This document shows positions 4,880-40,615 of a stretch of DNA of 64,000 bases, in pieces. Position 1 is the first letter of the stretch. Every line of letters begins with the position of its first letter. The notes beneath the pieces are model-generated. The model was not told the origin of the DNA and ran no database searches. It was given only the letters and a program-made list of their open reading frames with translations. This DNA is from an uncultured Mycoplasmatota bacterium (lineage in GTDB: Bacteria; Bacillota_I; Bacilli_A; RF39; UBA660), in the NCBI GenBank assembly GCA_900549285.1, contig URNW01000002.1, positions 15,450 through 79,449 of the forward strand, given 5' to 3'. A program made the translations under genes and the position numbers.

Positions 4880-6409
4880 TTAATTTATATTTTCTATTCT
4901 ATTAAATAGAATTTCAGGTTTATTTAATTTTAATTGTTCTTCTAACATTCCAAATTCACTGATACTTTCATAACTTGTATTTTTAGTATTTAATTGGTCT
5001 AATATTTTTTTGGAAGTACTTGGTATAAAAGGACTTAATAGAATTGCACAAATACGAATTGATTCTAAAAGATTATATAAAACAGTTGCTAATCTTTCTT
5101 TTTTATTTTCATCTTTAGCAAGAACCCATGGAGTTGTTTCATCAATGTATTTATTACATTTTCTTAAAACATCTATAATCTCTTCAATTGCTTCATTTAC
5201 CTTTAATTCATTCATTTTTTGCTCGACTATATCTTTTAAATTGGTTGTACTTGCTATTAAATTATAATCTATTTGTTCATTTATTTTAGGATTGCTTGTG
5301 ATTCCATCAAAATATTTATGAGTCATAGATATCGTTCTATTTACAAGATTTCCTAAAGTATTAGCTAAATCACTATTTGTTCTAGAAATTAAAGATTCTA
5401 TAGAGAAATTTCCATCATTTCCAAATGATACTTCTCTTAAAGCATAATATCTTACGGCATCTACTCCATAACTATTAATATATTCCCTTGGGTCTTTATA
5501 ATTTCCTAAACTCTTAGAAATTTTATCTCCACCTATTTTTAACCAACCATGGCCAAATACCTTTTTAGGAAGAGGAAGATTTAGTGCCATTAATAGACAT
5601 GGCCATATAATGGTATGAAATCTAATTATTTCTTTTCCTACTAAATGTAAATCCGCTGGCCAATATCGATTCATCTTTTCTTCTTCTTCAGGATATCCTA
5701 AGGTTGTAATATAGTTTGTTAGAGCATCTATCCATACATATATGACATGTTTAGGATCAAAATCTACTGGTATTCCCCATGTAAAACTAGTTCTTGAAAC
5801 ACATAAGTCTTCAAGTCCTGGATTAATAAAATTATTTAACATTTCATTCTTACGGGAAATTGGTTGGATAAAATCAGGATTTTCTTCATAAAATTTCACT
5901 AATTGATCTTGATATTTAGATAATTTAAAAAAATAAGCTTCTTCACTAACTAATTTTACCTCTCGTCCACAATCTGGGCATTTTCCATCTACTAATTGAG
6001 ATTCTGTCCAAAAAGATTCACAAGGAATACAATATAATCCTTCATAAGTTCCTTTATATATATCTCCTTGATCATATAGTTTTTTAAATATTTTTTGTAC
6101 TCTTCTTTCATGATCTTCATCCGTTGTTCTCATAAAATAATCATAAGAAATATCAAGTGATTTCCATAAATCTTTGGCATCTTCAATTATTTTATCTACA
6201 TATTCTTTTGGAGTTACTCCTGCTTCTTTCGCCTTTTTTTCAATTTTTTCGCCATGTTCATCTGTACCTGTTTGATAATAAACATCATAACCAGTTAATC
6301 TCTTATATCTAGCAATAGCATCTGCAATAATTGTTGTATAACAATGACCAATATGAAAATTCGCACTTGGATAATAAATAGGAGTTGTAATATAAAATTT
6401 TTCTTTCAT
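4880..6409 (-). CDS. metG: methionine--tRNA ligase (short form without C-terminal tRNA-binding domain)
   Basis: HIGH-type HIGHCYT, KMSKS-type KISKS and zinc knuckles CIPCE/CPDCG; 509 aa. Confidence 0.95.
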   Translation of the reverse strand: MKEKFYITTPIYYPSANFHIGHCYTTIIADAIARYKRLTGYDVYYQTGTDEHGEKIEKKAKEAGVTPKEYVDKIIEDAKDLWKSLDISYDYFMRTTDEDHERRVQKIFKKLYDQGDIYKGTYEGLYCIPCESFWTESQLVDGKCPDCGREVKLVSEEAYFFKLSKYQDQLVKFYEENPDFIQPISRKNEMLNNFINPGLEDLCVSRTSFTWGIPVDFDPKHVIYVWIDALTNYITTLGYPEEEEKMNRYWPADLHLVGKEIIRFHTIIWPCLLMALNLPLPKKVFGHGWLKIGGDKISKSLGNYKDPREYINSYGVDAVRYYALREVSFGNDGNFSIESLISRTNSDLANTLGNLVNRTISMTHKYFDGITSNPKINEQIDYNLIASTTNLKDIVEQKMNELKVNEAIEEIIDVLRKCNKYIDETTPWVLAKDENKKERLATVLYNLLESIRICAILLSPFIPSTSKKILDQLNTKNTSYESISEFGMLEEQLKLNKPEILFNRIENIN

Positions 6410-6424
6410 CTTTTTTCCTTCTTT

Positions 6425-7039
6425 CTATAAAATACTTTTTAATTCATATACATTTTTGATTGTTGGTATATCTTTTTCTTCTTTTTCAGTAATTAGATAA
6501 ACAGACATTCCTAGCTTTTTAGCAGGTAATATATCTATTAAATAATTATCACCAACCATTAAACATTCTTCTGGGAGATGGTCTCCCATGGCTTTTTTAA
6601 AAGCTTTAAAATTTGGTTTCATAGCTGTTTCACCACTTATTATTTCTTTAAAAAAGTTAGCTATTTTGGCTTTTTTTAGACGATTATATTGAGAAATATA
6701 AAACCAATTCGTTAGTATTACTAATTCATATTTTTTTTGTAAATAAGAAAGTGTTGATATTAATTTTTCGTCTACTTCACTCATGTTTCCTAAGTGTTTT
6801 AACCAGTGCTTTATGATAGAATTATCTACATTTTTTTTATATATTTGATTAAAATACTTTGTCATATTTTCTATACTTAATTGAGTTAAATTTTCTTGAT
6901 ATCCTTTTTTTAATTTAGAAAGTGTTTGATCTTCTAAAGTAATATGACACTCTTTTAAAGCTTTTCTAGCTGCTTCATCATATTCCTCTTTCCATGCAAT
7001 TAAAGTATTATCTAAGTCAAATATTATTCTTTTTAACAT
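6425..7039 (-). CDS. HAD-superfamily hydrolase
   Basis: FDLDNTL motif I and a GDN motif near the C-terminus. The start is moved to MLKRIIFDLDNT (7039) behind AAGGAGG, because the track's longer ORF runs into the T-box terminator. Confidence 0.75.
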   Translation of the reverse strand: MLKRIIFDLDNTLIAWKEEYDEAARKALKECHITLEDQTLSKLKKGYQENLTQLSIENMTKYFNQIYKKNVDNSIIKHWLKHLGNMSEVDEKLISTLSYLQKKYELVILTNWFYISQYNRLKKAKIANFFKEIISGETAMKPNFKAFKKAMGDHLPEECLMVGDNYLIDILPAKKLGMSVYLITEKEEKDIPTIKNVYELKSIL

Positions 7040-7059
7040 GCTAACCTCCTTTAAAACAA

Positions 7060-7265
7060 ATAAAAAACCATAAACTAAGGACGAGAAAACCCGCGGTACC
7101 ACCTTAATTCATGATTTTATTTCATGCTACTTTCTCTTTTAACGGTTGAGTTTCCGATTAAACTCCAGAGTCATCTTCCATACTATTTTATACTTATTTC
7201 CATCAACCATAAGCTTTCTATAATGAAAATAATATGTACTCATTCCTTCAACATTTAAGTGATTT
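7060..7265 (-). promoter_or_regulatory. T-box leader (probable Met specifier) controlling HAD-metG operon
   Basis: The minus strand reads AATTAAGGTGGTACCGCGGG (T-box core at 7091..7103) followed by a U-run (7062..7067). There is a stem-I-like GAATGAGTA. A candidate specifier AUG lies in GGAAGAUGAC (7172..7174). Confidence 0.75.
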
Positions 7266-7266
7266 C

Positions 7267-7296
7267 ATTATATTATATGCATCACTCTTATGTCAA
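7267..7296 (-). promoter_or_regulatory. sigma-A-like promoter for the T-box/HAD/metG transcript
   Basis: TTGACA (7296..7291) and TATAAT (7272..7267) with an 18-nt spacer on the minus strand. Confidence 0.5.
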
Positions 7297-7301
7297 GAAC
7301 T

Positions 7302-7817
7302 TTATATATCTAATTTGTGAGAAAAAATACTTGCTATTAATTTTCCTATTACTGGTTCTTCTTTTAAATTTGATTCACTATATAAAATGATTAGACCAAT
7401 ACTGTCATTTAAAGAAATAATTGGTACAAAGACAAAATTGCCTTCTAGTGTATATTCTCCTACTTTAAATGATATGTTTTCTTTTATTTTTATTTCTCTT
7501 TCTTCTATCATTTCTAAGTATTCATCAGAAATTTTATTTCCTATGATATTGATATTTAAACCTGCACTTGCTATTACTTTTTCACGGTCTGTTATTATTA
7601 TTTTATAATTAAAAGTATTATAAATAATTTCACATAAATTATTTGCCAAATCACTATTTGAAGTCATTCGACAATATTTTTTTAAGATGATATTATCACT
7701 TTCTGTAAATATCTCCATATTTTCGCCATCACGTATTCCTAAATTTCTTCTTATTTCTTTAGGTATTACGATTCTTCCTAACTCATCAATTCTTCTTACT
7801 ACCCCAGTAGATTTCAA
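7302..7817 (-). CDS. spoVT: stage V sporulation protein T (AbrB-family regulator)
   Basis: N-terminal SpoVT/AbrB swapped-hairpin motif GVVRRIDELGRIVIPKEIRR plus a ~120-aa GAF-like C-terminal domain. Sits next to mfd as in Bacillus. Confidence 0.85.
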   Translation of the reverse strand: MKSTGVVRRIDELGRIVIPKEIRRNLGIRDGENMEIFTESDNIILKKYCRMTSNSDLANNLCEIIYNTFNYKIIITDREKVIASAGLNINIIGNKISDEYLEMIEEREIKIKENISFKVGEYTLEGNFVFVPIISLNDSIGLIILYSESNLKEEPVIGKLIASIFSHKLDI

Positions 7818-8082: not shown

Positions 8083-8111
8083 TTGAAATTATTTATTATT
8101 TCATGTAAAAT
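8083..8111 (+). promoter_or_regulatory. sigma-A-like promoter of template cassette 1
   Basis: TTGAAA (8083..8088), a 17-nt spacer, then TAAAAT (8106..8111). The predicted start falls at the left inverted repeat (about 8118). Confidence 0.5.
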
Positions 8112-8117
8112 AAATTT

Positions 8118-8402
8118 AGGCTAATCTATTATTATAGGTATGTCTCCGTATAACTTCAACAACGGTAATGCTAACGTGTTCTATGTGAATTCGACTGGCA
8201 ACCTCAACAACAACAACGTGAATTGGACTGAACCAGGTGTGCGCCCAATATCCTTTTAAACTTACTATTTGGCTAAGGCTAAATAAAAAAGCATTAGGAT
8301 ACAAGATTAGCCATTGGGAAACCTAAATATTTGATATTGATATTTTAAATCTTGTATTTAGAATTAGAACAATATCTTTGAGAGAGAATTCTCTCTTTTT
8401 CT
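8118..8402 (+). ncRNA. DGR template-repeat-like non-coding cassette 1 (IR-L, TR1, conserved 3' structured element, terminator)
   Basis: Components in order: IR-L GGCTAATCT (8119..8127); TR1 (8140..8247); a conserved ~75-nt 3' block containing TGGCTAA (8270..8276) and AGATTAGCC (8304..8312); and the terminator AGAGAGAATTCTCTCT plus T-run (8381..8402). A paralogous unit lies at 8986..9279. Confidence 0.6.
8140..8247 (+). repeat. template-repeat-like copy TR1 (AAC/AAT-rich)
   Basis: 108 nt running ATGTCTCCGTATAAC...AACAACAACAAC...GGTGTGCGCCCA. Its ends are identical to the variable segment at 11746..11850. Differences from that segment fall mainly on TR1 adenines. Confidence 0.7.
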
Positions 8403-8525
8403 TTACATTGATTTTAAGAGATATTGGCTATTTACTTAAAACTTGGAGTTATATTCATTTTATTATATTTACTTGTAGTTATGGAGTTACAAATCTAAAG
8501 TATACACGTAAATTTTATATTATCT

Positions 8526-8551
8526 TTCAAAAAGGTCATCCACTGGATGAC
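8526..8551 (-). terminator. orphan intrinsic terminator-like hairpin
   Basis: The minus strand reads GTCATCCagtGGATGAC followed by CTTTTTG. No intact minus-strand gene lies upstream of it. Confidence 0.35.
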
Positions 8552-8613
8552 TAATTGATAAACCAGATAAAATAAATATTATCGCTTTAAACAGGTCAAC
8601 GATAACTACAGAT

Positions 8614-8945
8614 ATGAAAAATCCAATTATTATTCCTGTTAGTCATGAAATAATAAATGAACATGATTTAGAACTAAATATTCTTGCTAATCGTGATTTC
8701 TTCTTTTACTTATGTCAGTCATCAATATAAACTAGTAAAAGATAATCATAATTATTTTGTTGATATTTTACTATTTAATATTGAACTAAATTGTTATGTT
8801 GTAGTTGAATTAAAACTAAGAATTTTAAAGAAGCCCTTTTATAATTAAACAATTGGTATTATTATTTCTAAAGAAAGTGATCAGTTAATAGTTAATTTTG
8901 TCCGAAATGATATGATTATTCCATTAGATTATAAACTGATTAAAT
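8614..8945 (+). pseudogene. decayed DUF1016/YhcG-like PDDEXK nuclease fragment
   Basis: Translated pieces in shifting frames include EHDLELNILANRDFFFYL, HNYFVDILLFNIELNCYVVVELKLRILKK and IGIIISKESDQLIVNFVRNDMIIPLDYKL. These match the C-terminal half of YhcG-type nucleases. Stops and frameshifts are present and the N-terminal half is missing. Confidence 0.55.
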
Positions 8946-8950
8946 CTTTG

Positions 8951-8979
8951 TTGTAATTTTTTTATTATCATCTTATAAT
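8951..8979 (+). promoter_or_regulatory. sigma-A-like promoter of template cassette 2
   Basis: TTGTAA (8951..8956), a 17-nt spacer, then TATAAT (8974..8979). The predicted start falls at the left inverted repeat (about 8986). Confidence 0.55.
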
Positions 8980-8985
8980 AAGATT

Positions 8986-9279
8986 GGTTAATCTAATAAA
9001 TGAAGCATGATGTCTCCGTATAACGTTAACTCTAACGGTAATGCTAACGTGTTCAATGTGTGGTCGGATGGCAACCTCAACAACAACCGCGTGGATAACA
9101 CGAATGGTGTGCGCCCAATATCCTTTTAAACTTATTGTTTGGTTAAGGCTAAATAAAAAAGCATTAGGATACAAGATTAATCATTGGAATATATCCAAAA
9201 TAAATAATGTTGATGTTTTAAATCTTGCATTTAAAACTAATACAATATTAAAAAGTCTCATATTATTGAGGCTTTTTTG
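8986..9279 (+). ncRNA. DGR template-repeat-like non-coding cassette 2 (IR-L, TR2, conserved 3' structured element, terminator)
   Basis: Components in order: IR-L GGTTAATCT (8986..8994); TR2 (9010..9117); a conserved 3' block with TGGTTAA (9140..9146) and AGATTAATC (9174..9182); and the terminator AGTCTCAtattatTGAGGCT plus T-run (9254..9279). Confidence 0.6.
9010..9117 (+). repeat. template-repeat-like copy TR2 (AAC/AAT-rich)
   Basis: 108 nt running ATGTCTCCGTATAACGTTAAC...AACAACAACCGC...GGTGTGCGCCCA. It has the same 10-nt 5' end and 12-nt 3' end as TR1 and the variable segment. Confidence 0.7.
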
Positions 9280-9392
9280 CTAATTAGAATATAATAGTTT
9301 ATATATTGTAGTTTATACTATTAATAAAGATTAAACTACCATCAATAAATAACGATTATTTATTATGGGGTATGATATTAAAAAATACCTTA

Positions 9393-9848
9393 TTATTTAA
9401 GATATTTAGGATCATCCGTTTTACCTAAGAGGTAATCAGCAGATATGTTGTATTTTTTACATATATCATATAAAAATGGCGTTGCTATAATATTTTTACC
9501 TATTTCATAACCACTAATTGTTGATTTTGAATAATGTAAAATACCTGCTAAATCTGCTTGAGTTAAATTATATTTTTTACGTAATTCTTTTAAACGTATC
9601 CCAATTAATTTTTTATTTATTTCTAATCTATAATTAGAATAGTTTTTCATATTTGTAAAGCCAAATATATAATCTAGGGATATATTATAAAGATTAGATA
9701 GTGTATTTAAATGTTTAACAGGAATAATGGTCTCTCCTCGTTCATAATGACCATAGACATTTTTGTGTAAGTTTAAAAAAGTTGATATATCTTTTTGCGT
9801 AAATTTTTTTTCTTCTCTAGCATCTATTAATCTTTTCGTATAAAACAT
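9393..9848 (-). CDS. XRE-family transcriptional regulator with two HTH (Cro/C1-type) domains, copy 1
   Basis: Two HTH_3-like halves (FTQKDISTFLNL...ERGETIIP and LTQADLAGILHYSKSTISGYEIG). Start moved to MFYTKRL behind GGTGG. Paralog of 9984..10439. Confidence 0.8.
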   Translation of the reverse strand: MFYTKRLIDAREEKKFTQKDISTFLNLHKNVYGHYERGETIIPVKHLNTLSNLYNISLDYIFGFTNMKNYSNYRLEINKKLIGIRLKELRKKYNLTQADLAGILHYSKSTISGYEIGKNIIATPFLYDICKKYNISADYLLGKTDDPKYLK

Positions 9849-9921
9849 AAATACCACCATAGAAAAATTTTCTCAAAAGAAATAGAAAAAGTCAGAAATA
9901 AGACTTAATAGCGTTTTTGAT

Positions 9922-9950
9922 ATTGACTTTTAAACAGAACTCAACTATAA
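9922..9950 (+). promoter_or_regulatory. orphan duplicated promoter (copy of the target-gene promoter) firing antisense into the second XRE gene
   Basis: TTGACT (9922..9927), a 17-nt spacer, then TATAAT (9945..9950). It is preceded by the same TAAGACTTAATAGCGTTTTTG block seen upstream of 10512. Confidence 0.5.
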
Positions 9951-9983
9951 TGTATACATAATTGAAAATTCTTAACATAATAA

Positions 9984-10439
9984 TCACTTTCTAATATATT
10001 TAGGTTCATCTATTTTACCTAAGAGGTAGTCAGCAGATATATTGTATTTTCTGCATATATCATATAAAAAGGGTGTTGCAATTATCTTTGCCATTCTTTC
10101 ATAATCCCCAATAGTGGATTTACCAACATTTATGCTATCTGCTAATTCTTGCTGGGTTAAACCATATTCATTTCTTAGTTGCTTTAATCTTTCTCTTTGA
10201 AGTTCTTTACTAATAGTAGGAACAGCATTTTTATAATTAAGTACATCACAAAATTCAAAAACATAATCTAAAGATACATTGAAATAATTGCAAACATAAT
10301 TCAAATGTTTAATAGGAATAATAGTTTCTTCACGTTCATAATGTCCATAAACTTCATTTCCTAAACCTAATAACTTGGATATTTCTTTTTGTTTTAAATC
10401 ACATTTAGTTCTAATATCAATAAGTCTTTTCTTATACAT
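9984..10439 (-). CDS. XRE-family transcriptional regulator with two HTH domains, copy 2
   Basis: Same architecture as copy 1 (LKQKEISKLLGL...; LTQQELADSINVGKSTIGDYE), and the C-terminal ATPFLYDICxKYNISADYLLGK is shared. Start at MYKKRL behind GGTGG. Divergent from the target gene. Confidence 0.8.
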   Translation of the reverse strand: MYKKRLIDIRTKCDLKQKEISKLLGLGNEVYGHYEREETIIPIKHLNYVCNYFNVSLDYVFEFCDVLNYKNAVPTISKELQRERLKQLRNEYGLTQQELADSINVGKSTIGDYERMAKIIATPFLYDICRKYNISADYLLGKIDEPKYIRK

Positions 10440-10511
10440 TTTTACCACCATTTTAATTTTCTCAAAAACTTAAATTAAATGTACAATTAAGACTTAATAG
10501 CGTTTTTGTTG

Positions 10512-10540
10512 TTGACTTTATTATAACTATACTTTATACT
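10512..10540 (+). promoter_or_regulatory. sigma-A-like promoter of the variable surface-protein gene
   Basis: TTGACT (10512..10517), a 17-nt spacer, then TATACT (10535..10540), about 30 nt upstream of the ORF. Confidence 0.55.
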
Positions 10541-10569
10541 TAATATAGTTAAGGATTTTCAATTTTATA

Positions 10570-11922
10570 GTGAAAGAGGTTATAAAATTGAAGAAAGATG
10601 GAAGTATAGAATTTGAAACTATTAAATCTCATAAGAATAGATTATACTTTTTGTGTGGAATAGTCTGTGTAGTAGTACTTCTTGTTGTGTTTGTTATAAC
10701 TAGAAGTCATGCTAAGTACCGAACAACAGAATCTATTCCCTTAATAAATGGAACCATTAACTATATACCATATGATTTAAAAATGGTTGCTATGTATCAA
10801 GAAGAAAATGATGGTTATAAAAGTATAGATACAGTACCAACTAGTGGATATGCTTTAAATGAAGAGAAAAGCTATTGTGAAGTAAATGATACAAAAGATG
10901 AAAGCATATCTATGGAATATAAAGATGGAAAAGTATATATAGGAGTAAGTAAAAAAGGAACAAAATGTTACTTGTATTTTGATCAAGAACCAACGGCAAA
11001 AGATACAATATTAGCAAATAATTCTGTTAATAGTGGAACACCAAACTTTAGTCAGGTAGCAACAACGAATGAAGGAGTATATAAAACACAAGATGATTGG
11101 GGAGATAGTTATTACTTTAGAGGGGCTGTAGATAATAACTGGGTTAAATTTGCAGGATTCTATTGGCGAATTATTAGGATCAATGGAGATGGATCTATTA
11201 GATTAATCTATAATGGAACAAGTACAGCAACAACTGGAACAAGTACTCAAATACAAACAAGTACATTTAATAGTTCATATAATGACAATGCACATGTAGG
11301 ATATATGTATGGAAGTACAGGAGCAAATAGTTATGCAGCAACACATGCTAATACTAATAGTAGTACAATCAAAGGGGTATTAGATAATTGGTATCAGACT
11401 AATATAACAAATAAAGGATATGGAAATAAAGTAAGTACAGAAGCAGGATTTTGTGGAGATCGGGAACCAAGTACAAGTACATCAACAAGTAACGGTTCAG
11501 GAGGAACAGGGACAACAACTACATACTATGGCGGAAATATCAGATTAACAAATAGTACAAAATCTCCAATATTAAAATGTAAAAATAGCAGTGATTTATA
11601 TACGGTAAGCGGAAGTAGTAAAGGAAATAAAGCATTATCTAATCCAGTAGGATTAATAACCGCAGATGAAGTAGCTATGGCAGGAGGTGTGTGGGAAACA
11701 ACTAATCAAAGTTATTATCTATATACAGGACAGAATTATTGGCCCATGTCTCCGTCTAACTTTTTCGGCGGTTTTGCTCGCATGCTCTATGTGTCTTCGG
11801 ATGGCACCCTCAGCGTCGTCGGCGTGAATTACGCGCGAGGTGTGCGCCCAGTTATCAATTTACGGTCTGATATTACTATTTTATCTGGTGATGGTACTAG
11901 TTCTAATCCTTATGTTGTTTAA
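10570..11922 (+). CDS. membrane-anchored surface protein with C-terminal DGR-type variable region (putative DGR target)
   Basis: 450-aa ORF from a GTG at 10570; an alternative TTG at 10588 follows AAGAGG. It has an N-terminal TM helix, a conserved core (YYFRGAVDNNWVKFAGFYWRIIRINGDGSIRLIY) and a Ser/Thr/Gly linker. The C-terminal YW-x-SP...GVRPV module contains the GC-rich segment 11746..11850. Paralog of 49054..50349. Confidence 0.75.
   Translation: MKEVIKLKKDGSIEFETIKSHKNRLYFLCGIVCVVVLLVVFVITRSHAKYRTTESIPLINGTINYIPYDLKMVAMYQEENDGYKSIDTVPTSGYALNEEKSYCEVNDTKDESISMEYKDGKVYIGVSKKGTKCYLYFDQEPTAKDTILANNSVNSGTPNFSQVATTNEGVYKTQDDWGDSYYFRGAVDNNWVKFAGFYWRIIRINGDGSIRLIYNGTSTATTGTSTQIQTSTFNSSYNDNAHVGYMYGSTGANSYAATHANTNSSTIKGVLDNWYQTNITNKGYGNKVSTEAGFCGDREPSTSTSTSNGSGGTGTTTTYYGGNIRLTNSTKSPILKCKNSSDLYTVSGSSKGNKALSNPVGLITADEVAMAGGVWETTNQSYYLYTGQNYWPMSPSNFFGGFARMLYVSSDGTLSVVGVNYARGVRPVINLRSDITILSGDGTSSNPYVV
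11746..11850 (+). repeat. variable-repeat-like segment (VR) inside CDS 10570..11922
   Basis: 105 nt running ATGTCTCCGTCTAAC...GGTGTGCGCCCA, about 57% GC by hand count in an AT-rich gene. AAC/AAT codons of TR1/TR2 are replaced by TTC, GGC, TTT, CGC, TCT, ACC, AGC, GTC, GTC and GGC. The shared GC-rich 3' end GGTGTGCGCCCA is IMH-like. Confidence 0.7.
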
Positions 11923-11930
11923 GTAATTTA

Positions 11931-11962
11931 AAAAGCATCAAATTATTAGTTTGGTGCTTTTT
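11931..11962. terminator. bidirectional terminator between target gene and mfd
   Basis: AAAAGCATCA-11 nt-TGGTGCTTTT hairpin flanked by A/T runs. The right arm overlaps the last mfd codons. Confidence 0.5.
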
Positions 11963-22340: not shown

Positions 22341-24794
22341 CTATTCTTCATTTGTTTCTTTTTCAGCTTCATTTTCTTCTGTTGGTTCTTCTTCTTTTTC
22401 TACTAAGCTAAAAGTTGTAACAAATTGATCATCTTTTAAATTAATTAATCTTACTCCTTGAGTAACTCTTCCTAAGGTATTAATTTGATCTAAAGTCATA
22501 CGCATTGTAGTTCCAGTATTTGTCATAATAACCAATTCTTTATTTTCATCTACTACTTTAACAGAAGCAATATTACCATTTTTATCAGTAATATTCAAAG
22601 CTTTAACACCTTTACTTCCTCGGCTTGTTTCTCTAAAATCGCTTACTAATGTCTTTTTTCCATATCCTTTAACAGTTACCAACAATATTTTATCATCTTC
22701 ATTTACTACTTCTGCACAAATACATTTACTTCCATCTAAATTAATTCCTTTTACTCCACTTGCGGTTCTTCCCATTGCTCTTATTTTATCTTCTTTAAAT
22801 TTAACCATTCTACCAGTTTCACTACCTAAAAGAATATAATTATTTCCATTTGTTCGTTTTACCGCGATTAACTCATCATTGTCTTTTAGATTAATACAGA
22901 TTTTTCCAGACGTACGTATGTTTGCAAACTCTTCAATGGCTGTTTTCTTTACTAATCCATCTTTTGTTACAAATAATAAGTATTTAGTATCATCCTTAGA
23001 AGATATTCCTAGAATAGAGCTTATTGTTTCATCTTTTTCAAGTGGTAATAAATTAATTACTGGCAATCCTTTTGATTGACGATTAAATTCAGGTATTTCG
23101 TAGCCTTTGATACGGTATACTTTACCTTTATTTGTAAAGAACATAACATAATCATGAGAAGAGATATTAATTATATTTTCGACAAAATCTTCATCATTTG
23201 TTGTCATACCTTTAATACCCATTCCGCCACGTTTTTGAGCTTTAAATGTATCAGATGTTGTTCTTTTAATATAACCCTTATTTGTCATAGCTATTAGTAC
23301 ATTTTCCTCTGGTATTAAAGATTCATCTTCTATATATTCAATCGCAGTCATATCAATATCGGTACGGCGTTTATCGCCATATTTTTCTTTTATTTCTAGT
23401 AATTCATCTTTTATTATACTTAGAACTTTTTCTTCTGATGATAAAATTGATCGTAACTCATCAATTAGTTTCAACAATTCATTTAATTCTTCTTCAATTT
23501 TTTCTCTTTCTAAGCCTGTTAATCTTCTTAGGCGCATTTCTAAAATTGCTTCGGCTTGAATATCACTTAAATTAAAGTTATTCATTAATCCCGCTTTTGC
23601 TTCTTCATCAGATTGTGAGCCCCTGATTAACTTTATTACAGCATCAATATGATCTAGGGCTATTTTTAAGCCTTCTAAAATGTGTACTCGCTTTTCTGCT
23701 TTATCCAAATCAAATTGAGTTCTTCTTATAATAACTTCTTTTTGATAATCGATATACTTAGATATAATGTCTTTTAATCCTAATGTTTTTGGAACCCCAT
23801 TATCAAGCATTAAGAAAATGATACCATAGGTTGTTTGAAAAGCGGTGTGTTTATATAATTTATTTAATATTACACTTGCATTTGCGTCTTTTTTTAAGCT
23901 GATGGTAATTTTAATTCCTTCTTTTAAATCAGAATGGTAATCTGTTATTCCCTCTAATACTTTATTGTGTACTAATTCTGCTACTTTGTTTTTTAACTCT
24001 AAAGTGTTTACACCATAAGGAACTTCCTCAACTATGATATATTGACGACCATTTTTTTCTTCAATATGGGCTCTACTTCTAATAGTGATTGTTCCTCGAC
24101 CTGTTTCATAAGCTTTCTTGATTCCACTATTTCCTAGGATAAGGGCTCCTGTTGGAAAATCGGGGCCTTTAATATACTGCATTAATCCTGCTACATCTAT
24201 ATCAGGATTATCAATATAAGCTACACAACCATCTATTACTTCACCTAGATTGTGAGGAGGAATATTAGTTGCCATACCAACCGCTATTCCCATTGTTCCA
24301 TTTACTAACAAATTTGGAAACCTTGATGGTAAAACTTCTGGTTCTTTGGTTGTTTCATCATAATTTGGAATAAAGTTTACAGTATTTTTATTAATATCTC
24401 TTAATAATTCCATAGATATTTTAGGCAATTTTGCTTCGGTATAACGATAGGCAGCGGCTCTATAGCCATCAATATTACCAAAATTTCCATGACCATCTAC
24501 TAACATATAACGGTAATTAAAATCTTGGGCCATTCGAACCATTGCTTCATAGATACTTGAGTCTCCGTGTGGGTGATATTTACCCATTACATCACCGACA
24601 ATAGTTGCAGACTTACGATATTGTTTATCTGGTGTCAAACCATTTTGAAGCATATCATATAAAATACGACGGTGAACTGGTTTTAGGCCATCTCTTAAAT
24701 CTGGCAATGCCCGTGAAACAATTACACTCATGGAATATTCCAAAAAGGAATTTTTAATTTCTGTTACAATATTATTTTGTTCTAATCTATCCAT
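22341..24794 (-). CDS. gyrA: DNA gyrase subunit A
   Basis: 817 aa with the [21 protein letters not shown], the active-site Tyr context [10 protein letters not shown] and a beta-pinwheel C-terminal domain. Confidence 0.97.
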
Positions 24795-24805
24795 ACAAAA
24801 CCTCC

Positions 24806-26719
24806 TTAATAATCTAAGTTCTTAGCATATAAAGCATTGGCGGCAATAAACTCACGACGTGGTTCTACTTCTTCTCCCATTAGTTTAGAGAATATCTCAT
24901 CTGCCGCTATAGCGTCATCTACTGTTATTTGTCTTAAAATTCTTTTATTTATATCCATGGTTGTTTCATTTAATTCTTCAGCATCCATTTCTCCTAAACC
25001 TTTCATACGAGCTATCTCATATTTTGTAGATGGTGATAATGTTGCTAAGTATTCATCTCTTTCAGCTTCATTTAATACGTATTTTATCGTTTTTCCATGC
25101 TTTATAACGAATAATGGAGGTTGGGCTGCATAAACATGTCCTGCTTCTACAATTGGCTTAAAGAAGCGATAAAAAAGGGTTAAAAGTAGAACTCTAATAT
25201 GGGATCCGTCTACATCAGCATCTGTCATAATAATAATTTTATGATATCTTAATTTATCTAAATTAAAATCATCCCCAATACCTGTTCCAAAAGCCGTGAT
25301 AATTGTTCTTATTTCTTCATTTGATAAAGCACGATCTAAACGAGCTTTTTCTACATTTAATATTTTACCTCTTAATGGAAGAATGGCTTGAGTTAAGCTA
25401 TCTCTTCCTTTAATAGCTGATCCTCCTGCTGAATCTCCCTCTACTAAAAATATTTCGCTTACACTAGCATCTTTGCTTTTACAATCTACAAGTTTTCCAA
25501 AGAAATTTGTTACTTCCAAATCTCCTTTTCTTCTTGTCATTTCACGGGCTTTTTTAGCAGCGATTCTAGCACGAGATGCTGTCATACATTTTTCAATTAT
25601 TGTTTTAGCTACACTTGGATTTTCCATTAAAAAGCGTTCAAATCCTTCACTAAAAACATCATTTGCTATTTTTCTTACTTCACTATTTCCTAATTTTGTT
25701 TTAGTTTGTCCTTCAAATTGAGGGTCAGGATGCTTACAAGAAATAATCATAGCAAGTCCTTCACGACAATCATCTCCTGTTAGTGAATCATCATTATCTT
25801 TTAACATTTTATTATTTCTAGCATAATTATTAATAATTTTTGTTAAAGCAAACTTAACACCGTCTTCGTGTGTTCCGCCTTCATAAGTATTTATATTATT
25901 GGTAAAAGAATATAAACTGGAATTATAAGAATCATTATATTGCATAGCTACTTCAATATTTACGCCATTTTCTTCTCCTTCTACATATATTATTTCATCA
26001 TGTAGAGGTTGTTTATTTTTATTTAACATTGCTACATATTCAATAATTCCTCCATTGTAGCAGAATGTAGCTGTTTTACCATCTCCACGTTCATCAATTA
26101 ATATAATTCTTAATCCCTTATTTAAAAAGGCTAGTTCTCTTAAACGATTTTCTAAAGTTTCATAACTGTATTCTGTTGTTTCTTTAAATATTGTTGGATC
26201 GGCTTTAAAAGTTACTGTTGTTCCTGTACGTTCTGTTGCACATTTTTCAGTTACTTTCATTGGAGCTACAGGATGTCCGCCATTCTCAAAACGTTGGTAA
26301 TGAACTTCACCTTCCCTGTAAACTCTAACTTCTAGCCAGCTTGATAAGGCATTAACGACACTTGCTCCAACGCCATGAAGACCACCACTAACTTTATAGC
26401 CTCCACCGCCAAATTTACCACCTGCATGTAAAACAGTAAAAATAGTTTCTATCGTTGATAAACCTGTTTTAGCATTGATTCCAACGGGCATTCCACGTCC
26501 ATCATCTTTTACAGAAACAGAATTATCTTTGTGAATTACTACTTCAATATCATCACAAAATCCTGCTAAAGCTTCATCTACAGCATTATCCACTATTTCC
26601 CATACTAAATGGTGTAATCCTTTTTCACTAGTTGATCCTATATACATTCCTGGACGTTTTCTTACTGCTTCTAGTCCTTCTAATACCTGTATATCACTAT
26701 CTGAATATTCATTTTGCAT
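24806..26719 (-). CDS. gyrB: DNA gyrase subunit B
   Basis: GHKL ATPase ([16 protein letters not shown]), Toprim EGDSAGG and the [10 protein letters not shown] motif. Confidence 0.97.
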
Positions 26720-26721
26720 AT

Positions 26722-27810
26722 TTACTCCTCCTCTACTTTGCCATCAATCACATGAAAAATTTTTGATGTTTCTAATAATTTTTTATCAACATTCGATATT
26801 TCAGTAGTTGTTATGAATGTTTGTAAATCGGTATCAATTAAATTTAAAATATTATTTATTTTCTCTCGATCTAATTCACTAAATAAATCATCTAGAATTA
26901 AAATAGGTTTTTTATGTAATTTAATTTCAATATTTTTGATTTCTGCTAATTTAAAAGAAATAATACTATTTTTTTGTTCACCAACTGATGAAAATTCTTT
27001 TACAACTTCTTCATTAATTTTAAATTCTAGATCATCATGTTGAATTCCAAATAAAGTTTTACCTAAAAATATTTCTCGGGAAATATTTTTTTTAAACATC
27101 TTCATTATTTCTTCTTTGTTTTTTCCTTTAAATTCACTTTTATAAAGGACTTTTAATGAGCCTTTATGGGTGATCTTATAATAAATATCGCTAATATAAG
27201 AATTTATATTGTTGATAAAGTCCTCTCTTATCCACATTATTTTTAATCCAACATCTACTAATTGTTCTGTTAAAATATTTAGAAATGGGGTTTCTAGCTT
27301 TTTCTTTTTACTTAAAGCTTTTAAATAAGCATTTCTTTGTTTTAATATCTTATTATAATTCGTTAATAATTGAAGATATTCACTATTTATACCCGATATT
27401 TCAATATTTAACATTTTTCTTCTTGTACTTGGAGTATCTTTAATCAATTTTAAATCATCTGGATTAAATAAGATTATATTTACCCTCGTAATATAATCGC
27501 TTATTTTGGTTATTTGATTATTATCAATTTTAATTCTTTTACCAGCATTACTTATAATAATTTTGTAATTATTTAAAATTGAATCCTTTATTCTTCCTTC
27601 TATTTTAGCTATATTTTTTCCTCTTTTTATAACTATATCTTCATTATTAGAGCGAAATGTTTTAGTTACTCCTAACATATATATTGCTTCTATTATATTA
27701 GTTTTTCCCATCCCATTTTTTCCATATAGCATATTCATTTTTGAAGAAAAATTTAATTCTAAACTTTCATAATTACGGAAATTTAATAATTTTAAACTAC
27801 TGATTTGCAT
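26722..27810 (-). CDS. recF: DNA replication and repair protein RecF
   Basis: Walker [10 protein letters not shown], an SMC-like signature and Walker B ILILDD. Confidence 0.95.
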
Positions 27811-27900
27811 TTTTTAGCTCCTACTTTGCTGATATATAAAAATTAGTGGTATAATCGTACTCCTATACCTATTAATATTATATCATAAAAAAAGACCTTT

Positions 27901-28353
27901 TTAAAGGTATTTTTTATATTTTCGGCTTCTTAAAGATGATTCTAAACGAGTTGCTCTTAGTACTTGTTTATCAAAATTTGTATAACATAGATCTAACTCT
28001 AATTTTTGATCATTTTTAAACATTATTACTACTCTATTTGAAGAATTTATATAGTATTTTAAAATATTATCTAAGACAAACCATTTACAATTAGGATTTT
28101 TATTAGAAAGAGTAGGAACGAGAATTATTCGTTTCATTTCGTCTATTATTATTGGAGGTTTATAGCTGGCTCCTATTAAATAAGAACTTCCCTTTCTTCT
28201 TCCTTCTAAAGTTGATCCATTTAATATACAGTTATGCTCTATTATTTGGATTATTTTTTCTTCTATAATAAAGTCTTTTTCCCATTCTAGTACTCTTGTT
28301 TTTTTATCAATCGGTAAAAGTGCTAATGTTTTTTCAGTAATAATATACGGCAT
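27901..28353 (-). CDS. ComK-family competence transcription factor-like protein
   Basis: Alignable by eye to B. subtilis ComK: TLALLPID; CILNGSTLEGRRKGSSYLIGASYKPPIIIDEMKRIILVPTLSNKNPNCKWF; FDKQVLRATRLESSL. Confidence 0.6.
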   Translation of the reverse strand: MPYIITEKTLALLPIDKKTRVLEWEKDFIIEEKIIQIIEHNCILNGSTLEGRRKGSSYLIGASYKPPIIIDEMKRIILVPTLSNKNPNCKWFVLDNILKYYINSSNRVVIMFKNDQKLELDLCYTNFDKQVLRATRLESSLRSRKYKKYL

Positions 28354-28433
28354 CCAAATGCCCCCTTTCTTATAACTATACTTTAGTTATATCATATAAA
28401 AAGGAGCATTTTTGTCGAACCGTGTCAATCCAT

Positions 28434-29552
28434 TTAGTAAGTTTTTATAGGTAAAATTAGTTGGATTAATGATTCATCTGTTAAAGATTTAATAATTAAT
28501 GGTTTTACATCACTGTTTAACAATAAAAGAATTTCTTCTTCTTGTAATGTTTTAATAGCTTCTAACATATATTTTGAAGAAAATGATATTTCTAGGTGTT
28601 CTTTATTATTTGTTTCTACTGTTAATTGTTCTTCTACTTTTCCAATTTCTGAAGCATAAGAATTTATAACCATTTTGGTATTATCTAAAGACATTTTGAC
28701 AATATTTTTATCTTTTCCCTGAGTCAGTAGAGCTGCTCTATCTATAGCATCATTAAATTCTCTTTTATTTACTTTAATAATATAGCTAAATTCACTAGGT
28801 ATTAAGTTAGATGTATTAGGATAACTTCCACTTAGTAAATTTGTTTGAAAATTAATATTTTTATATTTAAATAAGGCTTTATTATTAAATATATGGATTT
28901 CTATATCACTATCATCCATAATAATTTTTTCTAATTCCATAATGTTTTTACCAGGAATGACAATTTCAACATCTTTTTCTACTTCTTGAGTTAATTTAAT
29001 ATTCTTTTTGGCTAAACGATAAGAATCAGTTGCAACAGTCTCTAATACATCTTTTGCAAATTTAAAGTTTACTCCTGTTAAAATTGGTCTTAATTCTTGA
29101 TTTGATATTGCAAAAACAGTTTGATTAATAATAGTTTTAAATTCTTCTCCATTAATAACAATTGGGTCTTTATTTTCTTCTAGTTTTACATCTGGATAAT
29201 CATTAATATCTAAACAATTAAGATTATATTGATTGTTTTCTGTGTAAATTTTAATTTTTAAGCCATCTATTACTTCAAAGTTTATTAAATCACTTGGCAT
29301 TTTTCTTACAATGTCTAAGATATATTTACTTTGAATGATTATTCCTCCTACACTACTTATTTGTTTAATATCTTTAGATTCTATTAAAACCTTAATTGTT
29401 AATTCAGAATCACTTGCTGTTAGATAAAGTCCTGTATTTGTTAATTCAAATTTTATTCCATTTAAAACGGGTATTACATTTTTAGTTGATATTGCTCTTA
29501 TTACATTATTTAATCCTTCTAATATTACATTTTTTTCAATTGTGAATTTCAT
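28434..29552 (-). CDS. dnaN: DNA polymerase III subunit beta
   Basis: 372-aa sliding-clamp three-domain protein immediately downstream of dnaA. Confidence 0.95.
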   Translation of the reverse strand: MKFTIEKNVILEGLNNVIRAISTKNVIPVLNGIKFELTNTGLYLTASDSELTIKVLIESKDIKQISSVGGIIIQSKYILDIVRKMPSDLINFEVIDGLKIKIYTENNQYNLNCLDINDYPDVKLEENKDPIVINGEEFKTIINQTVFAISNQELRPILTGVNFKFAKDVLETVATDSYRLAKKNIKLTQEVEKDVEIVIPGKNIMELEKIIMDDSDIEIHIFNNKALFKYKNINFQTNLLSGSYPNTSNLIPSEFSYIIKVNKREFNDAIDRAALLTQGKDKNIVKMSLDNTKMVINSYASEIGKVEEQLTVETNNKEHLEISFSSKYMLEAIKTLQEEEILLLLNSDVKPLIIKSLTDESLIQLILPIKTY

Positions 29553-29696
29553 ATTTATTCCTTCTTTCTAATTTATTATTATTTATTATAGTGTTAATAA
29601 TGTTTATAACTTATTTTTTCCTTTATTATAAAGTCTTTTTTTATTATTTTTAATGTTTATAACTGATCTTTTATTCACAACTAGGTCACAAGTTAT
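29553..29696. promoter_or_regulatory. dnaA-dnaN intergenic origin segment (degenerate DnaA boxes, AT-rich candidate unwinding region)
   Basis: Two copies of TAATGTTTATAAC (reverse complement TTATAAACA, two mismatches to TTATCCACA), plus TTATTCACA near 29677, in an extremely AT-rich spacer. Confidence 0.45.
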
Positions 29697-36529: not shown

Positions 36530-36692
36530 ATATTGGGATTATATCTTAAAGAAGATATTGCATTTAATTCTCAAAAATTAGAAGTGTCTTTATATCCTTA
36601 GTTCTTGCTCGTATATTGTAAAATCGTCGATTTTATGCTAAAATAAAGATGTATAAAAATAATGAAAGTATTTGTGAAAAGCGGTGAAATTT

Positions 36693-39550: not shown

Positions 39551-39551
39551 T

Positions 39552-40481: not shown

Positions 40482-40615
40482 ATGATTCACCTATTATAAA
40501 TTATATCACAAAGAACAACTATATTGTAAAAAAAAAACTTGTTACTAATGTTAATATTTCGTGAAAATTTGGTGAAGTTTAGTTTTTGTGTTATAATTAA
40601 TTCAGGGGAGATGCT

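What the first reader, a model, noticed from the sequence alone, without database searches (positions are those of the whole stretch)
8083..11922. DGR-like hypervariation locus with two template cassettes, one target gene and no reverse transcriptase in the window
A 105-nt segment at the C-terminus of CDS 10570..11922 (11746..11850, ATGTCTCCGT...GGTGTGCGCCCA) recurs twice upstream in the same orientation. Those 108-nt non-coding copies (8140..8247 and 9010..9117) share its first 10 nt and its last 12 GC-rich nt exactly. The upstream copies are packed with AAC/AAT codons, including runs of AAC AAC AAC AAC. In the gene those codons read TTC, GGC, TTT, CGC, TCT, ACC, AGC, GTC, GTC and GGC. Over the first 28 aligned codons against copy 1, I count 24 nucleotide differences by hand, and 20 of them fall on adenines of the upstream copy. 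Four features match the established DGR signature (TR -> VR): adenine-restricted template-to-target divergence, an Asn-codon-rich template, a VR at the extreme C-terminus of a surface protein, and a GC-rich 3' boundary like an IMH. However, no ORF in this 64 kb shows RT motifs (no YxDD-type box) and there is no Avd-like gene. The templates are duplicated and are separated from the target by two regulators. The shared flanks of 10-12 nt look too short for RecA-driven cassette conversion, so a retro-mechanism supplied in trans seems more likely. The alternatives are a fossil element or an unknown mechanism.
Basis: partly seen in the sequence, partly recalled or inferred. Interest (0 to 1): 0.9.

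Follow-up and report, generated by a model that had tools for sequence, protein, structure and literature searches.

The report
Stand-alone DGR template RNA genes
A small-genome gut bacterium carries two promoter-to-terminator RNA genes that look like templates of a diversity-generating retroelement, next to a surface-protein gene whose tip was once rewritten from such a template, but no reverse transcriptase lies anywhere near and the rewritten tip no longer varies between strains.

Summary
The segment 11746..11850 in CDS 10570..11922 recurs at 8140..8247 and 9010..9117. Against copy 1 there are 27 differences, 22 of them at template adenines (p = 3e-10). All AAC/AAT codons became NNC/NNT, which is the DGR signature.

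The interpretation needs correcting:
- Neither copy is the exact template: they show 5 and 10 non-adenine mismatches plus indels. A variant from related genomes fits better (22 A, 4 non-A, no gaps).
- Each copy is a compact RNA gene: promoter, TR, a ~130-nt structured domain with strong covariation and no Rfam match, then a terminator.
- I found 85 such cassettes in 58 loci from about 20 related gut Bacilli MAG species, several per genome. None is next to a reverse transcriptase.
- Targets are many scattered paralogs with a DUF6273 (C-type-lectin-like) fold.
- Across the family, variability sits at TR Asn positions. Within each of 13 lineages the VR is fixed across hundreds of contigs. The rare changes are recombinational allele swaps.

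Best reading: a DGR variant with a dispersed library of template genes unlinked to the RT, now quiescent or rarely active. I could not locate the RT.

The parts
8083..8111 (+). Promoter-like site of cassette 1 (TTGAAA-17-TAAAAT), about 29 nt upstream of TR1
   Evidence: Promoter-like matches are not above chance in this AT-rich DNA, but both cassettes have one at the same offset. The orthologous cassettes L025/L036 keep a near-identical TGGTATAAT and leader.
8140..8247 (+). Template-repeat-like segment 1 (TR1), non-coding. It reads MSPYNFNNGNANVFYVNSTGNLNNNNVNWTEPGVRP.
   Evidence: 31% A. Against the VR: 22 of 27 mismatches at A, with 5 non-A mismatches and a 3-nt length difference.
8248..8379 (+). 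Conserved structured RNA domain directly 3' of TR1. P1 (AUAUCC / GGAUAU) encloses hairpin P2. Then come single-stranded CAAGAUUA, hairpin P3 and the long hairpin P4.
   Evidence: 30 predicted pairs, 20 with compensatory changes, 96.8% paired against 84% in shuffles and 36-43% when slid. nhmmer E = 1.5e-39. No Rfam family at E <= 1.
8380..8403 (+). Intrinsic-terminator-like hairpin plus T run that ends cassette 1
   Evidence: 6 terminator-like sites found against 0.8 expected. An equivalent hairpin plus T run follows most cassettes in other genomes.
8515..8947 (+). Decayed yhcG (DUF1016 / PD-(D/E)XK nuclease) pseudogene between the two cassettes
   Evidence: tblastn with the intact L021 YhcG matches residues 133-302 at 65-70% identity, with in-frame stops, a frameshift and a deletion. 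Intact yhcG genes flank cassettes in 16 of 58 loci.
8951..8979 (+). Promoter-like site of cassette 2 (TTGTAA-17-TATAAT), about 31 nt upstream of TR2
9010..9117 (+). Template-repeat-like segment 2 (TR2). It reads MSPYNVNSNGNANVFNVWSDGNLNNNRVDNTNGVRP.
   Evidence: Against the VR: 18 of 28 mismatches at A, 10 non-A, and 3 gap columns.
9118..9249 (+). Structured RNA domain of cassette 2
   Evidence: nhmmer E = 2.9e-37
9255..9278 (+). Terminator-like hairpin (GTCTCA..TGAGGC) plus T run of cassette 2
   Evidence: Read from the sequence. It has too few G-C pairs to pass the scan.
9393..9860 (-). XRE-family regulator with two HTH domains (155 aa)
   Evidence: It is 59% identical to its neighbour.
9984..10451 (-). 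Second two-HTH XRE-family regulator, transcribed divergently from the target gene
   Evidence: Most of the paralogous target genes examined elsewhere have such a regulator just upstream and divergent.
10570..11922 (+). Target gene: a membrane-anchored surface protein. Most database copies start at 10588 (444 aa). The C-terminal part has a DUF6273 / C-type-lectin-like fold.
   Evidence: No Pfam hit for this copy. Some homologs hit PF19789. The model has pLDDT 82 and its top BFVD matches are DUF6273 proteins (E = 2.7e-5).
11746..11850 (+). Variable-region-like segment (VR): 57% G+C, 12% A. It reads MSPSNFFGGFARMLYVSSDGTLSVVGVNYARGVRP.
   Evidence: It is invariant in all 16 members of the 90% cluster. 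The best template found is a TR variant from another MAG (L029: 22 A, 4 non-A, 0 gaps).
11930..11962 (+). Terminator hairpin of the target gene. It is the only inverted repeat downstream of the VR and begins 80 nt after the VR ends.
49054..50421 (-). Second paralog of the target (455 aa, 60% identical). Its VR-equivalent at 49126..49233 has decayed: 38% G+C, 3' boundary GGTGTCCGTCCA, and many non-A differences from every TR.

Best explanation
The two upstream copies are stand-alone template-RNA genes of a DGR-type system. Each is a transcription unit of about 290 nt (inferred from the sequence): a promoter, a short leader, an Asn-codon-rich template repeat, a conserved structured RNA domain of about 130 nt that starts at the last TR base, and an intrinsic terminator.

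The lineage is a group of sporulating gut Bacilli of about 26% G+C, labelled 'Mycoplasma sp. CAG:776' or 'uncultured Bacilli'. It keeps several such genes per genome as a library of template variants. The variants hard-code different non-Asn residues, such as Trp, at different positions. The lineage also keeps many scattered paralogous target genes, most of those examined with a divergent two-HTH regulator.

Shown:
- The VR of the window's gene, and those of its relatives, differ from TRs of this family almost only at template adenines.
- Family-wide variability sits on the TR Asn codons.

Inferred:
- An adenine-error-prone reverse transcriptase copies a TR RNA.
- The structured domain recruits that enzyme and perhaps primes it, as the spacer RNA does in the Bordetella phage DGR.
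- The cDNA replaces the VR between the shared ATGTCTCCGT and GGTGTGCGCCCA boundaries.

The RT is not linked to any cassette or target I could see, so it must act in trans from elsewhere. The window's VR was written from a TR variant that is neither of the two cassettes beside it. Today the system is quiescent or fires very rarely. VRs are fixed within lineages and change mainly by homologous recombination between alleles and paralogs.
For: Adenine specificity:
- 22 of 27 mismatches (TR1) and 18 of 28 (TR2) fall at template A, and every AAC/AAT became NNC/NNT.
- For VRs from other loci, the best TR-VR pairs give 14/3, 17/3, 22/4 and 17/5 A/non-A mismatches without gaps.
- Across 16 distinct 35-residue VRs, entropy is 2.72 bits at the 12 TR-Asn positions against 1.06 bits at the 23 others (p = 4.5e-5).

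RNA gene anatomy:
- A conserved 3' domain is present in 30 aligned cassettes.
- The consensus structure has 30 pairs, 20 with compensatory changes. In the controls, 0 of 500 shuffles reached the observed values, and slid structures were 36-43% paired against 96.8%.
- Promoter-like and terminator-like sites lie at matching positions in both cassettes.

Present-day selection on the cassettes:
- In the syntenic cassettes L025 and L036, the promoter, leader and P1/P2 core are 95-100% identical, while the neighbouring gene is 85% identical at the nucleotide level.
- P4 keeps its pairing through double changes.

Library and spread:
- 85 cassettes in 58 loci from about 20 MAG species, up to 3 per 8-kb locus.

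Target fold:
- The model matches DUF6273 proteins. PMC10743442 describes DUF6273 as C-type-lectin-like and as a DGR target.

RT unlinked:
- No RT or Avd in 712 kb comprising the window and the loci fetched up to that point.
- Motif scans of all cassette loci were negative.
- No RVT Pfam family appears within about 6-10 kb of the 8 paralog loci examined or of either window edge.

Precedent for trans action and for RT-less loci.
Against: - No RT was found, so the central enzyme is inferred.
- No TR-VR pair in any locus is free of non-adenine mismatches. This is unusual for a recently active DGR.
- VRs are static. Thirteen 90% clusters (about 190 distinct proteins, together seen on more than 1000 contigs) each keep essentially one VR.
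- Where one locus carries two different VRs in near-identical strains, the swapped tract runs about 70 nt past the TR-homologous end. That points to recombination, not homing.
- There is no hairpin just downstream of the VR like the one the Bordetella element needs.
- TR bodies turn over faster than their flanks (83% against 93% identity). A plain template model does not predict this.
- Metagenome assemblies report consensus sequence, so low-frequency VR variants would be invisible.
Confidence: 0.62

Rival explanations
1. Fossil DGR. The lineage lost its RT. The VRs are frozen records of old homing events, and the cassettes are leftovers that no longer serve as templates. They either decay slowly or have been co-opted for something else.
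For: - VRs are invariant within all 13 lineages examined.
- There is no RT near any of 58 cassette loci or 8 target loci.
- Every TR-VR pair has non-A mismatches.
- The second paralog in the window has an ameliorated VR at 38% G+C.
- Some cassettes are degenerate. For example, the L060 cassette has GATGTGTGCCCA at its boundary.
- Treponema denticola isolates with leftover targets after DGR loss are a precedent.
Against: - The cassette promoter, leader and RNA core are more conserved between species than the adjacent coding gene, and helices are kept by compensatory changes in orthologous cassettes.
- TRs stay rich in AAC in a genome where nothing else would maintain that.
- The VR and TR ends remain G+C-rich in a 26% G+C genome.
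- At most about a tenth of any single genome was inspected (my estimate), so loss of the RT is not shown.
Confidence: 0.22
2. RT-independent cassette recombination. The upstream copies would be silent donor cassettes, as in pilS/pilE or vls, that convert the expressed gene by homologous or nuclease-assisted recombination. The neighbouring PD-(D/E)XK nucleases might take part.
For: - Whole-VR allele swaps occur between near-identical backbones, and one swapped tract extends beyond the TR-homologous region.
- Identical VR sequence is seen on different paralog backbones (P0128, P0042).
- TR bodies are mosaic and turn over faster than their flanks.
- yhcG or PDDEXK_2 nuclease genes lie beside many cassettes and some targets.
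Against: - Conversion from these cassettes would copy the AAC runs verbatim. Instead the VRs are adenine-depleted, with the third codon base kept. No recombination mechanism explains that.
- The observed swaps are between VRs, not from cassettes.
- The yhcG copy in the window is a pseudogene while the cassettes are intact.
- P0042 comes from a 3-kb contig at 0.75x coverage and may be a chimeric assembly.
Confidence: 0.05
3. Chance similarity, or decayed 3' fragments of paralogous genes.
For: - The family has many paralogs.
- A pseudogene of a different family lies between the copies.
Against: - The boundary motifs are far above chance.
- There is no upstream coding remnant: the open frame is only 2-5 codons before each copy.
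- The 3' flank is a conserved structured RNA, not the gene's 3' end.
Confidence: 0.01

Closest known systems
Canonical diversity-generating retroelement (Bordetella phage BPP-1: mtd-avd-TR-brt)
   Same: - A TR to VR relation with adenine-specific substitutions at AAC codons.
- The VR lies at the C-terminal tip of a ligand-binding fold.
- The 3' boundary is G+C-rich and shared by TR and VR.
- A structured RNA lies directly 3' of the TR. In BPP-1 this is the spacer, the Rfam RT-10 motif.
   Different: - No brt or avd homolog is adjacent; in BPP-1 they flank the TR.
- There are many TRs per genome, each with its own promoter and terminator.
- The RNA domain matches no Rfam family.
- No hairpin follows the VR.
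- There is no current VR hypervariation.
Chromosomal DGRs with remote targets (for example Treponema denticola), and T. denticola isolates with leftover targets
   Same: - Multiple paralogous surface-protein targets are scattered around the chromosome and would be acted on in trans.
- Some genomes keep targets without the core element.
   Different: - There, one TR sits beside the RT and the remote elements are VRs.
- Here the remote, multiplied elements are the TRs themselves, and none is beside an RT.
Incomplete DGR loci of Thiohalocapsa PB-PSB1 (PMC10907252)
   Same: Loci that lack an RT and/or a TR are proposed to be diversified in trans by components encoded elsewhere in the genome.
   Different: - In PB-PSB1, intact RT-containing DGRs are known in the same genome, and some remote VRs match a TR at all non-A sites.
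- Here no RT is known and no perfect TR-VR match was found.
- Here the RT-less TR genes are the rule across a whole clade.
DGRs of gut phages that target DUF6273 proteins (tentaclins; Faecalibacterium prophages)
   Same: The target domain type is the same: DUF6273, which resembles a C-type lectin domain.
   Different: - Those are compact phage cassettes with an RT.
- This family is chromosomal. It gave no tblastn hit in GenBank phages, and its TR/VR is absent from IMG/VR.
Silent-cassette antigenic variation (Neisseria pilE/pilS, Borrelia vlsE; from my own knowledge)
   Same: - Several non-expressed cassettes lie near or far from an expressed surface-protein gene.
- There is evidence of recombinational swapping of the variable segment.
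   Different: Donor cassette sequence is not copied verbatim. The differences are adenine-specific, and the cassettes are RNA genes with a terminator.

Membership tests
Diversity-generating retroelement (DGR) | A TR/VR pair whose differences fall overwhelmingly at adenines of the TR | tested here: met
   22/27 (TR1) and 18/28 (TR2) at A, p = 3e-10 and 6e-7. The reverse direction is not significant. Other loci give 14/3 and 17/3 A/non-A.
Diversity-generating retroelement (DGR) | The cognate TR matches the VR at (nearly) all non-adenine positions | tested here: not met
   The window cassettes show 5 and 10 non-A mismatches plus 3-nt indels. The best TR found anywhere still has 4. No adjacent pair in any locus is clean. 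The true cognate may be an unseen cassette.
Diversity-generating retroelement (DGR) | A DGR-clade reverse transcriptase encoded next to the TR | tested here: not met
   None in the window, in 10 kb on either side, or in the 58 cassette loci. Whole genomes could not be scanned.
Diversity-generating retroelement (DGR) | An accessory gene (avd or HRDC type) in the cassette | tested here: inconclusive
   tblastn with Bordetella Avd gave nothing (best E = 0.47). Avd proteins are too divergent for this to count as a real exclusion.
Diversity-generating retroelement (DGR) | The VR is displayed at the C-terminus of a C-type-lectin-like (or Ig-like) ligand-binding fold | tested here: met
   The VR ends 24 codons before the stop. 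The model (pLDDT 82) matches DUF6273 proteins in BFVD (E = 2.7e-5, probability 1.0). DUF6273 is reported as C-type-lectin-like. PDB matches to CTLDs are only weak (E > 2).
Diversity-generating retroelement (DGR) | A G+C-rich IMH at the 3' end of the VR, with a slightly different IMH* at the TR | tested here: inconclusive
   A 12-nt G+C-rich boundary is identical in VR and TRs. The sequences diverge immediately after it (GTTATC against ATATCC). Which part gives directionality cannot be told from sequence alone.
Diversity-generating retroelement (DGR) | A hairpin/cruciform just downstream of the VR, required for homing in the Bordetella element (PMC3240598, listed; the requirement is from my own knowledge) | tested here: not met
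   The only inverted repeat is the gene's terminator, 80 nt downstream.
Diversity-generating retroelement (DGR) | VR hypervariation among strains or within populations | tested here: not met
   One VR per lineage in 13 clusters. Read-level data were not available.
Diversity-generating retroelement (DGR) | Across homologs, variable positions coincide with TR adenine-containing (Asn) codons | tested here: met
   Entropy 2.72 against 1.06 bits, Mann-Whitney p = 4.5e-5, Spearman 0.68.
Silent-cassette gene conversion (pilS/vls type) | Segments of donor cassettes appear unchanged in the expression locus | tested here: not met
   The AAC runs of the cassettes are never found in the VRs, and differences are adenine-specific.
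Retron | A structured ncRNA (msr-msd) directly adjacent to its own RT gene | tested here: not met
   No RT is adjacent, and no retron or RT-associated Rfam motif matches.

The most novel reading that the evidence does not exclude
A whole clade of gut Bacilli has separated the DGR template from the enzyme. It maintains a dispersed, selected library of autonomous TR-RNA genes with a new structured RT-recruitment domain. The reverse transcriptase would not be part of the resident locus at all. It would be supplied only occasionally by a mobile element or phage, or by an RT outside the DGR clade. That would explain why VRs are rewritten in rare bursts and then stay fixed.
Probability: 0.2. Interest if true: 0.85.

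Novelty: new variant of a known kind. Interest (0 to 1): 0.62.

Why it matters
DGR surveys anchor on the RT gene and look for a TR nearby (for example DGRscan constrains its search with RT hits), so a system whose templates are never next to the RT would probably be missed. If the reading is right, four things follow:
- DGR templates can exist as independent, multiplied RNA genes that form a library. Each template fixes a different scaffold of non-Asn residues.
- There is a new conserved RNA domain, with no Rfam match, attached to the 3' end of a TR. It is a direct candidate for the RT-binding or priming element and can be tested in vitro.
- It gives a natural case for asking how TR RNA and RT find each other in trans, and how often a chromosomal DGR fires in the gut.
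- The static VRs, which are shuffled by recombination, show that DGR-made diversity can persist as a small set of alleles long after the mutagenic event.

Tried and rejected
Ways I tried to find the RT:
- A six-frame YxDD scan of the window and of every cassette and target locus found only housekeeping look-alikes.
- tblastn with Brt and Avd against 712 kb gave nothing.
- Gene lists with Pfam families for 8 target-paralog loci and for both window edges show no RVT family.
- I took DGR RTs from low-G+C IMG/VR phages and searched the protein database with their profile. All 120 listed hits look like the query phage RTs (346-378 aa, mostly on contigs of phage size). None shares a longest-contig length with any target protein. 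This was a long shot and it failed.

Phage origin:
- The TR with its flank, the RNA core and the TR/VR pattern are all absent from IMG/VR.
- The target family gave no tblastn hit in GenBank phages.
- Two IMG/VR contigs encode distant homologs, with no RT in the fetched parts.

Other checks:
- Rfam gave no hit.
- A PDB sequence profile search gave no hit.
- Foldseek against the PDB gave only weak CTLD matches.
- A search for a clean cognate TR among adjacent cassettes found none.
- P0042, a 586-aa protein with the identical VR, looked like evidence for VR copying. It comes from a 0.75x-coverage 3-kb contig and may be chimeric.
- The 586-aa gene beyond the left edge of the window is not a paralog.
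- The supplements of the Wu et al. survey were not available.

Full report
**1. The observation**

The segment 11746..11850 lies inside CDS 10570..11922. It recurs in the same orientation at 8140..8247 and 9010..9117. The copies share ATGTCTCCGT at the 5' end and GGTGTGCGCCCA at the 3' end exactly. Each motif occurs only at these three places in 64 kb, against 0.09 and 0.01 expected by chance.

- Copy 1 against the gene segment: 27 mismatches, 22 at adenines of the upstream copy (Fisher p = 3e-10).
- Copy 2 against the gene segment: 28 mismatches, 18 at adenines (p = 6e-7).
- With the gene segment treated as the template, there is no adenine bias.

**2. What the upstream copies are**

They are not gene fragments. 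The open frame before each copy is only 2-5 codons long. About 150 nt after each copy is conserved between the two and unrelated to the gene's 3' end.

A pattern scan of one genome per species found 32 loci in MAGs labelled 'uncultured Bacilli', 'uncultured Mycoplasma sp.', 'Mycoplasmatota' or 'Mycoplasma sp. CAG:776'. They come from human, rabbit, chicken and other guts. About 30 of the matches are non-coding, Asn-codon-rich segments of 102-123 nt, all followed by the same 3' element. A metagenome scan for the element added 31 more loci. In all, a looser pattern finds 85 cassettes in 58 non-redundant loci, up to three per locus and several per genome.

The 3' element has a consensus structure of 30 base pairs, 20 of which show compensatory changes. 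The controls support it:
- 96.8% of cells are paired, against 84% in shuffles.
- 0 of 500 shuffles reach the observed covariation.
- Structures slid by 1-3 columns are only 36-43% paired.

The structure runs as follows. Helix P1 (AUAUCC / GGAUAU) begins at the first base after the TR and encloses hairpin P2. An almost invariant single-stranded CAAGAUUA follows. Next comes a short hairpin P3, which I read by eye; its sequence varies but pairing is kept. A long hairpin P4 ends the domain. A hairpin plus T run follows in most cassettes.

Both window cassettes have a sigma-70-like site 29-31 nt upstream. No Rfam family matches at E <= 1, including the RT-associated motifs of Weinberg et al.. Each cassette therefore looks like a small RNA gene: promoter, leader, TR, structured domain, terminator.

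**3. Are the cassettes still under selection?**

The cassettes in L025 and L036 are orthologous by synteny; both lie just after a cation-efflux gene. That gene is 85% identical at the nucleotide level between the two. The cassette's promoter and leader are almost identical, and the first 66 nt of the RNA domain are about 95% identical. P4 has changed from AUAUUG..CAAUAU to AUGCUG..CAGCAU, which keeps the pairing. This argues for purifying selection on the RNA after the two species split. In the window, a yhcG nuclease gene between the cassettes has decayed to a pseudogene while both cassettes are intact.

**4. The target**

The gene encodes a membrane-anchored protein of 444-450 aa with no Pfam hit of its own. 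It belongs to a very large family: more than 7,900 hits among the 8,000 candidates scored. Some members hit PF19789 (DUF6273).

An AlphaFold model (mean pLDDT 82, above 90 for residues 150-450) finds DUF6273 proteins of gut phages as its best matches in BFVD (E = 2.7e-5). Against the PDB it finds only weak C-type-lectin hits. DUF6273 has been described as C-type-lectin-like and as a DGR target.

Each genome has many paralogs scattered among housekeeping genes, most of those examined with a divergent two-HTH XRE regulator upstream. The window itself holds a second paralog at 49054..50421 (-). Its VR-equivalent is 38% G+C and far from any TR, so it is a decayed VR.

**5. Did adenine mutagenesis shape the family?**

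Yes. Among 16 distinct VRs of 35 residues, positional entropy is 2.72 bits at the 12 positions where TRs encode Asn, and 1.06 bits at the other 23 (p = 4.5e-5).

I matched every VR for which I had DNA against all 64 distinct TRs. The best pairs have 14/3, 17/3, 22/4 and 17/5 adenine/non-adenine mismatches and no gaps. For the window's VR, the best template is a TR variant seen in another MAG (L029...NFNGSNANVFRVNSNGNLNNNNVNNTRG): 22 A mismatches, 4 non-A and no gaps. That beats either cassette in the window.

The two neighbouring cassettes are therefore not the templates of this VR. The cognate is a third variant that I did not see in this genome.

**6. Is it active now?**

I found no sign of it.
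- The 16 distinct proteins of the target's 90% cluster all carry the same VR, except one recombinant. They differ elsewhere, and one of them is seen on 90 contigs.
- Twelve further clusters behave the same way: one VR each, with rare single-residue changes or wholesale replacement by a VR known from another allele or paralog.
- At one locus (S10 operon, PDDEXK_2, target), two strains that are 100% identical over the roughly 1.45 kb of aligned sequence before the VR, apart from one short cluster of differences, carry quite different VRs. The replaced tract starts at the VR's 5' boundary but runs about 70 nt past the TR-homologous end. That fits homologous recombination, not retrohoming.

Assemblies give consensus sequence, so rare variants would be missed. 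Even so, an active DGR should give different dominant VRs in different samples.

**7. The reverse transcriptase**

None is in the window or in the 10 kb beyond either edge. None is in the 58 cassette loci, and no RVT Pfam family appears around 8 target-paralog loci. If one cassette per genome sat beside the RT, as in ordinary DGRs, I estimate that several of the 85 should have shown it. None did.

The TR/VR family and its RNA domain are absent from IMG/VR. A profile of low-G+C phage DGR RTs recovered only RTs like the queries, and none shares a contig-length fingerprint with the targets.

I estimate that I saw at most about a tenth of any one genome. An RT elsewhere on the chromosome is therefore not excluded, and it is the simplest expectation.

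**8. Other features**

- Cassettes whose 3' flanks are about 99% identical can have TR bodies only 76-90% identical. Over 34 such pairs, TR identity averages 83% and flank identity 93%. TR bodies look mosaic and differ in which positions are hard-coded as Trp, Asp, Ser and so on. The library seems to be reshuffled.
- yhcG (DUF1016 / PD-(D/E)XK) genes lie beside cassettes in 16 of 58 loci, at a median distance of 215 nt. I cannot tell whether this is functional or just a shared insertion site.

**9. Verdict**

The DGR-type origin of the VR is well supported. The anatomy is not that of a standard DGR. The templates are autonomous, multiplied RNA genes with a new structured domain. They are unlinked to any RT and mostly unlinked to targets. 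The VRs are currently static.

Precedents exist for trans action, for multiple TRs and for RT-less remnants. In the papers I searched I found no description of a clade-wide library of stand-alone TR genes. I file it as a new variant of a known kind. The main open point is where the RT is, or whether there is one at all.

Noticed in passing
window 49054..50421 (-), VR-equivalent 49126..49233: A second paralog of the target gene (455 aa, 60% identical to the first). Its variable segment has drifted to 38% G+C and its 3' boundary is mutated (GGTGTCCGTCCA). It lacks the usual divergent HTH regulator: the 380 nt upstream are non-coding, and the next gene (50799..51743) looks like a RhuM/Fic-DOC protein by eye.
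   Followed up: partly
window 8515..8947 (+): A pseudogene of a yhcG / DUF1016 PD-(D/E)XK nuclease lies between the two cassettes. Intact copies flank cassettes in 16 of 58 loci in related genomes, often as repeated [cassette][yhcG] units (L021, L027).
   Followed up: partly
window 9393..10451 (-) and upstream regions around 9899 and 10490: Two tandem two-HTH XRE regulators, 59% identical. Their upstream regions are duplicated too (AAGACTTAATAGCGTTTTTG..TTGACTTT), which suggests a tandem duplication of the regulator together with its promoter.
   Followed up: no
L170 and L171, target gene and about 70 nt after its VR: The same chromosomal locus in two almost identical strains carries two unrelated VR alleles. 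The exchanged tract extends beyond the TR-homologous region, so VR alleles move by homologous recombination. A PDDEXK_2 (Rpn-like) nuclease gene sits directly upstream of this target.
   Followed up: partly
L058/L059/L073, L047/L068 and others: Many cassettes begin with TAA or TAG or TTG in place of the ATG codon of the VR frame (*SPYN.., LSPYN..). This confirms that the TR is not translated and that the 5' homology starts at TCTCCG.
   Followed up: no
L004, L011, L045 and five other loci: Cassettes often lie next to type IV pilin-like genes (N-terminal KKGFTLIELL) and genes for proteins with similar class III-like signal peptides. P0079 has a weak N-terminal match to the camelysin/TasA-type family. 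The targets may belong to a surface-fibre or pseudopilus system.
   Followed up: no
window 36684..40490 and 50799..51743: A cluster of conflict-type genes: a likely Fic protein by eye (36684..37229), an unknown 200-aa ORF (37537..38139), an Abi_2 protein by Pfam (39555..40490), and a likely RhuM plus Fic/DOC protein by eye (50799..51743).
   Followed up: no
window 22341..31043 (-): By eye from the translations, this is the chromosome origin region: dnaA, dnaN, recF, gyrB, gyrA, with rnpA, yidC and jag on the other side. Sporulation genes are present (SpoVT by Pfam; Spore_II_R, Spo0A_C and SpoIID by Pfam; yabG by eye). So the 'Mycoplasma' label of its relatives is a misnomer for a sporulating Bacilli lineage with about 26% G+C.
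   Followed up: no
L166 19172..20957 and L167 19105..20369 (about 9 kb beyond the right edge of the window): Strain-specific mobile DNA starts after secA. One strain has a phage-type integrase there, and another has KilA-N and Y1 transposase genes. I could not read further, so an RT-bearing element there is possible but unseen.
   Followed up: no
L153 (IMG/VR contig of 362 kb, 27% G+C), 5826..7380: A very large low-G+C viral contig carries a compact DGR: a 63-nt TR with 8 of 8 mismatches at A, an RT of 321 aa, and small target ORFs on both sides. It is unrelated to the window's family.
   Followed up: no
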